The notes under the pieces were generated by a model. The model saw only the letters and a list, made by a program, of their open reading frames with translations. It searched no databases and had not been told where the DNA came from. The translations under genes were made by a program, and so were the position numbers. Below, piece by piece: positions 10,091 through 10,662 of a DNA stretch of 64,000 nucleotides. Position 1 is the first letter of the stretch; each line of letters opens with the position of its first letter. The DNA lies in assembly GCF_055900595.2 (NCBI RefSeq), contig NZ_CM148325.1. One strand, given 5' to 3'.

Positions 10091-10662
10091 AGGGTGAATT
10101 CCTTTTCATGATCCCGATACGTTAACTGTTACGGCGTAATCATCCTTTTTATGAATGATTCGAGTGGAAATATACGTTATATAAATTTATAAGAGACTTT
10201 TTCTATTAATTGTTGTATTAATTGGTAGTGCGAATATGACATTAAATGTCAGACAATTTCAGATTGTAGCCAATAATATTAATCGCGCGGATTTTAATGA
10301 TCGATGTCAATCAATGTCAAATGTTTCACCGGATGAAAACACCGACCAGGAGAAATATTAATATTCAGCATGGTGATGTTTTCTTGGGAAGTGTGTGATT
10401 CTGAGCGATAAATATAAATAATTAATGGCTGTTACAGGCATTAATGTGCATTAATTCATTGTTATCGCTTATATATCACTTTTTTATTCCATACCACAAT
10501 TTCAGAATTTAGCCTGTAATATGCGCTTCAAAGAGCCGGTGAGATGGAAGCAATAGTGATAAGAATGTTAAAGATATCCGATATCTGGTATCAGGCTCCT
10601 GCATGTGCCAGCAGGAGCGAGTAAATCGTGAGAGGCTGTGATTACAGCGGTGAGACAGGTAC
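10091..10662. promoter_or_regulatory. 570-bp AT-rich noncoding leader upstream of the SadB-like/adhesin pair
   Basis: No ORF of 60 aa or more on either strand; visibly AT-rich with phased A/T tracts; also holds the 3' flank of yibL including an 8-bp-stem hairpin gctcctgc...gcaggagc at about 10594..10617. Confidence 0.5.

What the first reader, a model, noticed from the sequence alone, without database searches (positions are those of the whole stretch)
10091..10662. Long AT-rich noncoding leader upstream of the adhesin operon, a candidate silencing region
A 570-bp stretch with no ORF of 60 aa or more on either strand separates yibL from the lipoprotein gene. It is far more AT-rich than the flanking core genes and contains phased A/T tracts and short repeats (atgtcaa x2, ttaat runs). 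Long AT-rich leaders are typical of horizontally acquired adhesin operons under nucleoid-protein repression, so the operon is probably cryptic under laboratory conditions.
Basis: inference. Interest (0 to 1): 0.45.

Follow-up and report, generated by a model that had tools for sequence, protein, structure and literature searches.

The report
Silenced promoter region of sadBA/upaG adhesin operon

Summary
The window is E. coli chromosome. On the minus strand, 10091-10662 lies between yibL and a sadB-like lipoprotein gene, which is followed by a 1603-aa YadA-like adhesin (the sadBA/upaG/ehaG operon).

**Confirmed:**
- No ORF of 60 aa or more.
- 35.8% GC against 50.8% for the window. The lowest-GC 572-bp stretch of all 64 kb lies here.
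- atgtcaa occurs twice, and ATTAAT is over-represented.

**Not confirmed:**
- Phased A-tracts and intrinsic curvature are at shuffle or background level.
- Only about 194 nt is predicted leader.
- The yibL-proximal 82 bp is 52% GC and holds a conserved hairpin.

**New detail:**
- The "atgtcaa x2" are two TTGACA hexamers on the operon strand. One of them forms an 11/12 sigma-70 match (TTGACA-N18-TAAAAT).
- That promoter is conserved at about -181 to -232 from the sadB ATG in five otherwise divergent E. coli allele classes, E. fergusonii, Pseudocitrobacter and Salmonella.
- A distal box, WAWTCYGAAAAW, sits about 185 bp upstream of it in all eight.
- Every allele keeps a 526-573 bp gap of 29-36% GC.

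Published work reports that hns deletion derepresses upaG and that sadBA is silent in culture. Verdict: interpretation supported, already known, low interest.

The parts
10091..10662 (-). Whole yibL-sadB intergenic region, the cis-regulatory region of the sadBA/upaG-type operon
   Evidence: ORF list. RefSeq annotation of identical or homologous loci shows no feature under it. GC 35.8%.
9884..10522 (.). Maximal AT-rich block (68.5% AT) covering the promoter, the predicted leader and the first 207 bp of sadB; presumed H-NS target
   Evidence: TpA density is 0.093 against 0.047 for the window. Three matches to the H-NS 10-mer tCGATAAATT with 2 mismatches or fewer lie in the gap (10178, 10202, 10405), and two more in the sadB 5' end. 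This is weak, composition-driven evidence.
10595..10618 (-). Conserved 8-bp stem / 8-nt loop hairpin (GCUCCUGC-UGGCACAU-GCAGGAGC), 45 nt after the yibL stop; probable yibL 3'-end or terminator-like element without a U tract
   Evidence: Fold z-score -2.8. Invariant in allele classes A-D, and an analogous hairpin exists in Pseudocitrobacter and HS. The scan found no canonical intrinsic terminator.
10496..10522 (-). Distal conserved box (core AATTCTGAAATT at 10498-10509; consensus WAWTCYGAAAAW), 189 bp upstream of the -35; candidate binding site for an unknown regulator
   Evidence: Direct repeat D1, copy 2. Conserved block in the allele alignment. Present 175-189 bp upstream of the -35 in all 8 lineages, including sequences that otherwise cannot be aligned.
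10421..10445 (.). Near-perfect 25-bp palindrome ATTAATGGCTGT-T-ACAGGCATTAAT, specific to this allele
   Evidence: Inverted repeat I13, 92% complementary. Not palindromic in the other alleles.
10315..10320 (-). Predicted -35 hexamer TTGACA. A second TTGACA lies at 10305-10310.
   Evidence: Invariant in all 8 lineages.
10291..10296 (-). Predicted -10 hexamer TAAAAT (18-nt spacer; 11/12 match to consensus), followed by the GC-rich stretch CCGCGCG
   Evidence: TTGACA-N17/18-TA[AG][AC]AT lies at -232 to -181 from the ATG in all 8 lineages, where chance gives 0.25-0.95% per gap.
10284..10284 (-). Predicted transcription start (plus or minus 3 nt), giving a 5' leader of about 194 nt
   Evidence: Inference from the position of the -10. 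Not mapped here.
10237..10279 (-). Box just downstream of the predicted start: D1 copy 1 (10253-10279, GGCTACAATCTGAAATT) plus the palindrome TGACATTTAATGTCA (10237-10251); candidate operator
   Evidence: CTACAA...GACATTTAAT is partly conserved in E. fergusonii, HS and Salmonella.
10138..10160 (-). Conserved inverted repeat in the leader, AATCATTCAT-AAAAA-GGATGATT (local hairpin or protein site)
   Evidence: Present in classes A, B and D and in Pseudocitrobacter.
10100..10104 (-). Shine-Dalgarno AAGGA of sadB, placed in the 6-nt loop of a weak predicted hairpin
   Evidence: Sequence, fold, invariant in classes A-D.
9407..10090 (-). sadB-like inner-membrane lipoprotein gene (227 aa, DUF3251 / SadB-YajI family; lipobox LTGC)
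4552..9363 (-). YadA-like trimeric autotransporter adhesin gene (1603 aa; UpaG/EhaG/SadA orthologue), 43 nt downstream of sadB
10663..11025 (-). yibL (ribosome-associated protein), the upstream core gene
   Evidence: NCBIfam equivalog, 190.9 bits.

Best explanation
The 572-bp gap is the transcriptional control region of the sadB-adhesin operon (the orthologue of Salmonella sadBA, UPEC upaG and EHEC ehaG).

Read on the minus strand, it holds these elements in order:
- A conserved hairpin that ends the yibL transcript.
- About 270 bp of AT-rich upstream DNA carrying a conserved distal box.
- A near-consensus sigma-70 promoter (TTGACA-18-TAAAAT, predicted start near 10284).
- A second conserved box just downstream of the predicted start.
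- An AT-rich leader of about 194 nt ending in the sadB ribosome-binding site.

The promoter is intrinsically strong. It sits inside a 640-bp block of 68% AT DNA rich in TpA steps, which continues into sadB. H-NS (with StpA) is expected to nucleate and spread over this block, occluding or trapping RNA polymerase. The operon would then be silent in ordinary culture until an unknown signal or anti-silencer relieves it.

What is shown here: the anatomy, the composition, and the conservation of the promoter and boxes. What is shown by others on orthologous alleles: H-NS repression and silence in the laboratory. What is inferred: that this allele behaves the same way, the position of the start site, and the role of the boxes.
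For: Locus identity: the order is yibL, gap, SadB/YajI-family lipoprotein, YadA-like adhesin, lldP. K-12 lacks the whole segment, as described by Grin 2013.

Composition: 35.8% GC, the lowest stretch in 64 kb, with TpA density twice the window value.

Promoter: an 11/12 consensus match on the operon strand. TTGACA-N17/18-TAnnAT is kept at -232 to -181 from the ATG in five E. coli allele classes (pairwise gap identity falling to 43%), E. fergusonii, Pseudocitrobacter and Salmonella. Chance gives 0.25-0.95% per sequence.

Gap length and composition: 526-573 bp and 29-36% GC are kept in all lineages although the sequence diverges.

Literature: H-NS represses UpaG, hns deletion derepresses upaG, and sadBA is not expressed in culture.
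Against: - There is no direct evidence for this allele, which is 23% diverged from the UpaG-type gap and 57% from the EhaG-type gap.
- The primary paper (Totsika 2012) could not be read, so the mapped promoter, if there is one, could not be compared.
- No phased A-tracts or predicted curvature.
- Matches to the H-NS nucleation motif are only composition-level.
- Neighbouring intergenic regions are almost as AT-rich.
- The adhesin gene itself has average GC, so this is not a classic AT-rich island.
- The conserved boxes suggest that specific regulators also act here.
Confidence: 0.75

Rival explanations
1. Control is mainly by one or more specific transcription factors rather than by H-NS. The conserved distal box (10498-10509) and the box just downstream of the predicted start (10237-10279) would be operators, either for a looping repressor or for an activator/anti-silencer. 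AT-richness would be incidental.
For: The distal box WAWTCYGAAAAW keeps a spacing of 175-189 bp to the -35 in all 8 lineages, even where the flanks cannot be aligned. The two boxes form a 27-nt direct repeat, 85% identical and 243 bp apart, that brackets the promoter. A near-consensus promoter that is silent needs a repressor.
Against: The published derepression in hns mutants shows H-NS is at least part of the mechanism. The CTGAAAT half of the proximal box is not conserved in HS, Pseudocitrobacter or Salmonella. No factor could be assigned. Resemblances to OmpR, NagC, Fur, Lrp and RcsB sites were only recalled from memory, and all are poor. This rival is compatible with H-NS silencing combined with specific anti-silencing.
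Confidence: 0.3
2. The long leader is a post-transcriptional control element, for example a thermosensor, a CsrA or sRNA target, or a hairpin presenting the ribosome-binding site. That element, not transcription, would keep the operon cryptic.
For: The predicted leader length of about 181-232 nt is conserved. The leader holds a conserved inverted repeat at 10138-10160, and the AAGGA ribosome-binding site lies in the loop of a small hairpin.
Against: The leader as a whole folds no better than shuffles (z = +1.0). There is no Rfam match even at E of 1 or less. The conserved stems are invariant, so they offer no covariation. The hairpin around the ribosome-binding site is absent from the HS/EhaG, E. 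fergusonii and Salmonella leaders.
Confidence: 0.1
3. The gap hides an unannotated small protein gene or small RNA.
For: It is unusually long for a gap between co-directional genes. It contains three short ORFs of 41, 33 and 31 aa.
Against: All three ORFs are interrupted by single-base indels in the other allele classes. There is no Rfam family hit. Conservation is confined to short blocks typical of protein-binding sites and a promoter.
Confidence: 0.04

Closest known systems
upaG (UPEC CFT073/Nissle type) and ehaG (EHEC) promoter regions, repressed by H-NS (Totsika et al. 2012, Appl Environ Microbiol 78:2179; cited in PMC5012682 and PMC12525524)
   Same: Same chromosomal locus and gene order (yibL, gap, sadB-like lipoprotein, trimeric adhesin, lldP). 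The gap is of similar length (543-573 bp) and GC (29-36%). The -35/-10 architecture and the distal box are shared.
   Different: The sequence is a rare allele class, found at 95% identity or more in only 28 of 5426 complete E. coli genomes. It is 77% identical to the UpaG-type gap and about 43% (unalignable) to the EhaG-type gap. It has a 12-bp insertion, a private 25-bp palindrome and a private excess of ATTAAT. H-NS control was not tested for this allele.
Salmonella enterica sadBA operon (Grin et al. 2013, PMC3953254)
   Same: A lipoprotein-plus-adhesin operon between the mtl and lld operons, silent in culture. It has a 526-bp, 31.6% GC upstream gap with TTGACA-N17-TAGCAT at -225 and the distal box AATCTGAAAAA 182 bp upstream of the -35.
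   Different: Apart from these blocks the gap cannot be aligned. The -10 is weaker (TAGCAT). There is no GC-rich CCGCGCG stretch and no leader inverted repeat.
Other H-NS-silenced E. coli adhesin promoters (UpaC, UpaH, F9 fimbriae, cryptic chaperone-usher fimbriae)
   Same: AT-rich upstream regions of surface-adhesin operons that are silent in vitro and derepressed in hns mutants.
   Different: These are unrelated sequences and different loci. Here the silenced unit sits at a conserved core-genome position rather than on a pathogenicity island, and only the gap and sadB are AT-rich, not the adhesin gene.

Membership tests
Regulatory region of the sadBA / upaG / ehaG operon | Located between yibL (mtl side) and the lld operon, directly upstream of the lipoprotein gene | tested here: met
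   Grin 2013 describes the same context.
Regulatory region of the sadBA / upaG / ehaG operon | The downstream genes are a SadB/YajI-family (DUF3251) lipoprotein followed closely by a YadA-like trimeric autotransporter | tested here: met
   RefSeq names at homologous loci. Lipobox LTGC and 63-97% identity to SadB homologues. Adhesin matches to the Ata, YadA and EmaA models are below their curated cut-offs. The gap between the two genes is 43 nt.
Regulatory region of the sadBA / upaG / ehaG operon | Sequence homology of the gap itself to that of characterised strains | tested here: met
   77% identity to the UpaG-type allele (Nissle). The promoter and distal box are shared with all classes, including the EhaG type.
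H-NS (xenogeneic-silencer) target region | Several hundred bp of AT content well above the genome average, rich in TpA steps | tested here: met
   9884-10522 is 68.5% AT. It contains the lowest-GC window in 64 kb. TpA density is 0.093 against 0.047.
H-NS (xenogeneic-silencer) target region | Physical occupancy by H-NS (ChIP, EMSA or footprint) | not testable with these tools
   No binding data can be produced here. Secondary sources cite Totsika 2012 for orthologues. The primary paper is not held.
H-NS (xenogeneic-silencer) target region | Derepression in an hns mutant | not testable with these tools
   Reported for upaG in the literature. Not tested for this allele.
H-NS (xenogeneic-silencer) target region | Intrinsic curvature or phased A-tracts (often quoted, not strictly required) | tested here: not met
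   A-tract count and 10-11 bp periodicity equal the shuffles. Modelled curvature equals the window mean.
H-NS (xenogeneic-silencer) target region | High-affinity nucleation motif tCGATAAATT | tested here: inconclusive
   Only matches with 2 mismatches (10178, 10202, 10405; best core is GCGATAAATA). The enrichment is explained by composition.
Sigma-70 promoter | -35 and -10 hexamers close to consensus at 16-18 bp spacing on the operon strand | tested here: met
   TTGACA-18-TAAAAT, 11/12. Conserved in 8 lineages.
Sigma-70 promoter | Mapped transcription start | not testable with these tools
   No transcript data are available. The start near 10284 is inferred.
Intrinsic (Rho-independent) terminator of yibL | GC-rich hairpin followed by a U tract | tested here: not met
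   The hairpin is present and conserved, but there is no U tract and the scan found no terminator. The Pseudocitrobacter version has a U-rich tail.
Known cis-regulatory RNA / sRNA (Rfam) | Match to a covariance model | tested here: not met
   No match at E of 1 or less in 9000-12000.

The most novel reading that the evidence does not exclude
Beyond generic H-NS silencing, the gap carries a conserved and apparently undescribed architecture. A distal WAWTCYGAAAAW box lies about 185 bp upstream of a near-consensus promoter, and a CTACAA...GACATTTAAT box lies just downstream of the predicted start. Both are retained across Escherichia, Pseudocitrobacter and Salmonella although the rest of the gap has diverged beyond alignment. 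This would mark the binding sites of a dedicated, still unidentified regulator (an anti-silencer or a looping repressor). That regulator would set the natural inducing condition of SadA/UpaG/EhaG, which the literature says is unknown.
Probability: 0.3. Interest if true: 0.45.

Novelty: already known. Interest (0 to 1): 0.22.

Why it matters
UpaG/EhaG/SadA are large adhesins that promote biofilm formation and binding to extracellular matrix in uropathogenic and enterohaemorrhagic E. coli and in Salmonella, and they have been proposed as vaccine or display scaffolds. They are silent in culture, and their natural inducing signal is unknown.

This re-examination adds a concrete map of the control region that can be tested. 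The map comprises a promoter conserved across genera, a distal box at fixed spacing, a conserved box downstream of the predicted start, and a leader of about 190 nt. It also shows that the long AT-rich gap is an ancestral feature of the locus under constraint on length and composition, not a recent import. These blocks are the obvious targets for finding what turns the adhesin on.

Tried and rejected
- **Rfam scan** of 9000-12000 at E of 1 or less: nothing.
- **Intrinsic terminator scan:** none.
- **A-tract phasing and AA/TT periodicity:** no signal.
- **Wedge-model curvature:** average (parameters recalled from memory, so only the relative result is used).
- **H-NS 10-mer scan:** only matches with 2 mismatches, explained by composition.
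- **Third copy of the 27-nt repeat upstream of yibL (11106-11132):** it has 3 mismatches to the consensus, about 1.7 such hits are expected by chance in the window, and it is not conserved in K-12 or HS. Rejected as chance.
- **ATTAAT enrichment as a general signature of the locus:** rejected, because only this allele shows it.
- **Small ORFs of 41, 33 and 31 aa:** not conserved.
- **Global structure of the leader:** not better than shuffles.
- **Assigning the conserved boxes to OmpR, NagC/Mlc, Fur, Lrp, IHF, RcsB, MarA or EvgA consensus sites:** this could only be done from memory, every match was poor, and no claim is made.
- **Dam/GATC phase variation:** there are only two GATC sites, and the one in the promoter spacer is not conserved in classes C, D and E.
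- **Literature access:** the primary papers on UpaG/EhaG (PMC3302597, PMC2446758, PubMed 22286983) are not held. Searches for STM3691 with H-NS, and for locus tags, found nothing useful.
- **Scan of genome contigs with a SadB alignment:** it returned only 8 loci and no Salmonella. Salmonella and E. fergusonii were reached instead through the protein search and a contig look-up.

Full report
**What the locus is.** The window is E. coli chromosome. On the minus strand the order is:
- mtlA-mtlD-mtlR
- yibT (plus strand)
- yibL (10663-11025)
- the 572-bp gap 10091-10662
- a 227-aa lipoprotein gene (9407-10090)
- after a further 43 nt, a 1603-aa YadA-like trimeric autotransporter adhesin (4552-9363)
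- lldP

This order comes and from annotation of an identical locus in strain EC42405 and of homologous loci.

RefSeq names the lipoprotein 'SadB/YajI family lipoprotein / DUF3251'. It names the adhesin 'YadA-like', 'UpaG' in Nissle or 'EhaG' in an EHEC-type strain. NCBIfam confirms yibL and gives trimeric-autotransporter hits for the large protein that fall below their curated cut-offs.

K-12 lacks the whole segment. Its yibL stop is followed directly by the REP element that in the window lies downstream of the adhesin gene. Grin et al. 2013 describe this as a 5-kb deletion of the sadBA operon between the mtl and lld operons (PMC3953254). The finding is therefore the upstream region of the E. 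coli orthologue of sadBA, known as upaG or ehaG.

**Checking the observation.**

Confirmed:
- The coordinates are exact.
- No ORF of 60 aa or more exists. The only ORFs are 41, 33 and 31 aa, and all three are broken by single-base indels in other alleles.
- GC is 35.8%, against 50.8% for the window, 49.6% for yibL and 39.8% for sadB.
- Only 0.74% of 572-bp windows are as low, and the lowest of all (32.0%) is 9884-10455.
- The maximal AT-rich segment is 9884-10522 (68.5% AT). It reaches 207 bp into sadB, and its TpA density is twice the window value.
- 'atgtcaa x2' is real (10304 and 10314; p about 0.013).
- The 'ttaat runs' are real. ATTAAT occurs 7 times against 0.85 expected, with 0 of 2000 shuffles reaching that count.

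Not confirmed:
- A4/T4 tracts number 7, against 7.2 in shuffles.
- There is no 10-11 bp AA/TT periodicity (p about 0.25).
- Modelled curvature equals the window mean (wedge parameters recalled from memory).

Qualifications:
- The yibL-proximal 82 bp is 52% GC.
- The neighbouring intergenic regions are nearly as AT-rich (37.8% and 41.8%).
- The unusual features are therefore the length of the region and its spread into the gene.
- The ATTAAT excess is private to this allele.

**Anatomy from comparative footprinting.** sadB is present in 4149 of 5426 complete E. coli genomes. It occurs in deep allele classes, with DNA identity to the window of 99, about 86, about 79 and about 71%.

| Allele class | Genomes | Gap identity to the window |
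|---|---|---|
| Window allele | 28 (at 95% or more) | 95% or more |
| B2/UpaG type | about 1270 | 76-79% |
| ST131 type | about 580 | about 67% (blastn); 64% in alignment |
| O145 type | not counted | 61% |
| HS/EhaG type | not counted | about 43%, not detectable by blastn |

Every allele nevertheless keeps a gap of 543-573 bp at 29-36% GC. The same holds for E. fergusonii (531 bp, 33.7%), Pseudocitrobacter vendiensis (about 556 bp, 35.1%) and Salmonella enterica (526 bp, 31.6%).

Aligning classes A-D and block-matching the rest gives discrete conserved islands, listed here on the operon strand:
1. A hairpin, GCUCCUGC-UGGCACAU-GCAGGAGC, at 10595-10618. It folds better than shuffles (z = -2.8) but has no U tract.
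2. A distal box, AATTCTGAAATT (10498-10509; consensus WAWTCYGAAAAW). It lies 175-189 bp upstream of the -35 in all eight lineages.
3. The block AAACATTTGACATTGATTGACAnCGATCATTAAAATCCGCGCGAT.
4. A block just downstream of the promoter, GGCTACAAnCTGAAAT plus TGACATTTAAT (10237-10279). The CTACAA...GACATTTAAT part is shared by all lineages.
5. An inverted repeat in the leader, at 10138-10160.
6. The AAGGA ribosome-binding site.

**The promoter.** The upstream one (10315-10320) pairs with TAAAAT (10291-10296) at an 18-nt spacing. This is an 11/12 consensus match and the best in the region.

The pattern TTGACA-N17/18-TA[AG][AC]AT occurs at -232 to -181 from the sadB ATG in all eight lineages. It appears in only 0.25-0.95% of dinucleotide-preserving shuffles of each gap. 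I take this as the operon promoter, with a predicted start near 10284 and a leader of about 194 nt. This is an inference, because no transcript data were available. So only about a third of the 'leader' is leader. About 270 bp is upstream regulatory DNA.

**How it most likely works.** A near-consensus promoter that is nonetheless silent needs repression. Three secondary sources bear on this:
- H-NS is a transcriptional repressor of UpaG (PMC5012682, citing Totsika 2012).
- 'hns deletion derepresses upaG' (table in PMC12525524).
- The same laboratory lists autotransporters among H-NS-repressed UPEC genes.

Grin et al. could not detect SadA in Salmonella under any culture condition and state that the native conditions are unknown. 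The sequence properties fit H-NS preferences: a long block of 68% AT rich in TpA steps that spans the promoter and the start of the gene. They do not fit the older curvature picture, and the nucleation 10-mer is matched only at 2 mismatches.

My best explanation (confidence 0.75) is that H-NS spreads over 9884-10522 and silences a strong promoter. Relief would come from an unknown signal. The transfer of this mechanism to this diverged allele is inferred.

**Rival explanations.**
- *Specific regulators acting at the conserved boxes (0.3; compatible with anti-silencing).* The fixed spacing of the distal box, and the 27-nt, 85%-identical direct repeat that brackets the promoter 243 bp apart, speak for it. 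I could not assign a factor, and half of the proximal box is not conserved outside classes A-D.
- *Post-transcriptional control through the leader (0.1).* The leader folds no better than shuffles (z = +1.0), has no Rfam match, and its stems are invariant or absent in distant lineages.
- *A hidden small gene or sRNA (0.04).* The indels and the lack of any match argue against it.

**Comparison with what is known.** This is the same locus and the same kind of element as the published upaG/ehaG/sadBA upstream region. It meets the membership features that can be tested: synteny, downstream genes, homology of the gap and a shared promoter. The H-NS-specific features, occupancy and derepression, cannot be tested here and rest on literature for orthologues.

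'Horizontally acquired' is not well supported:
- The operon and its long AT-rich gap occupy the same core-genome position in three genera.
- Absence from K-12 is a deletion.
- The adhesin gene has average GC.

**Novelty and score.** The residual novelty is the cross-genus map of the control region. If that box marks a dedicated regulator, it would make the open question of when these adhesins are expressed directly testable (probability about 0.3, interest if true about 0.45).

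Noticed in passing
window 10663-11025 (yibL): The yibL DNA is only 91-93% identical to yibL of other E. coli allele groups, although the protein is identical (WP_000665680.1). That is 7-9% purely synonymous divergence in a core gene. It suggests that deep allele lineages at the adjacent adhesin locus drag their flanks along.
   Followed up: partly
window 4552-10662 and loci L002, L005-L011: The whole sadB-adhesin segment is hypervariable within E. coli. sadB DNA identity between strains falls to 67-70%, and gap identity falls to about 43%. There are at least five allele classes, and the window's class is found in only about 28 of 5426 complete genomes.
   Followed up: partly
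window ~4470-4520 versus L004 5029-5110 (K-12): The K-12 deletion of sadBA runs from immediately after the yibL stop to the REP element upstream of lldP. The entire AT-rich gap, including the hairpin after yibL, is missing in K-12.
   Followed up: yes
L001 11316-12000 (strain EC42405) versus window 9407-10090: The only complete genome with a 100% identical gap has a frameshifted sadB pseudogene and a shorter adhesin (1517 aa against 1603 aa). The window's sadB is intact.
   Followed up: no
window 7157-8230: Inside the adhesin gene, short ORFs on both strands recur with a strict 213-bp period (7353, 7566, 7779, and so on), and there is a block of strong positive GC skew. This indicates tandem 71-aa stalk repeats, which probably underlie the length variation between strains.
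   Followed up: no
window 9893-9976: A 42-nt tandem repeat (74% identical) lies in the AT-rich 5' part of sadB. It encodes the repetitive QQ/EKQQ coiled-coil segment of the lipoprotein.
   Followed up: no
window 10421-10445 and 10203-10214: Two features are specific to this allele. One is a near-perfect 25-bp palindrome, ATTAATGGCTGT-T-ACAGGCATTAAT, about 100 bp upstream of the -35. The other is a 12-nt insertion that duplicates CAATTAATA in the leader. Together with other ATTAAT copies they give 7 ATTAAT words against 0.9 expected, an excess not seen in other alleles.
   Followed up: partly
window 10284-10290: The stretch between the -10 and the predicted start is GC-rich (CCGCGCG). It is conserved in E. 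coli classes A-D and in Pseudocitrobacter, but is replaced by A-rich sequence in HS/EhaG, E. fergusonii and Salmonella. A discriminator of this kind is typical of promoters sensitive to ppGpp/DksA (recalled from general knowledge).
   Followed up: no
loci L013, L016, L017, L019: Contigs labelled as Oscillospiraceae, Collinsella, Bacillota MAGs and 'Bacillus hominis' carry E. coli-type yibL-sadB sequence. They are probably contamination or mis-binned contigs in the public genome collection.
   Followed up: no
L001 19945-24572 (corresponds to the window beyond about 18000): Downstream of yibH lie rhs-associated toxin/immunity remnants (tlde1 domain, Imm57, RHS core fragments, yibA, yibG). Several other low-GC 572-bp windows (21626, 28320, 40313, and others) were not examined.
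   Followed up: no
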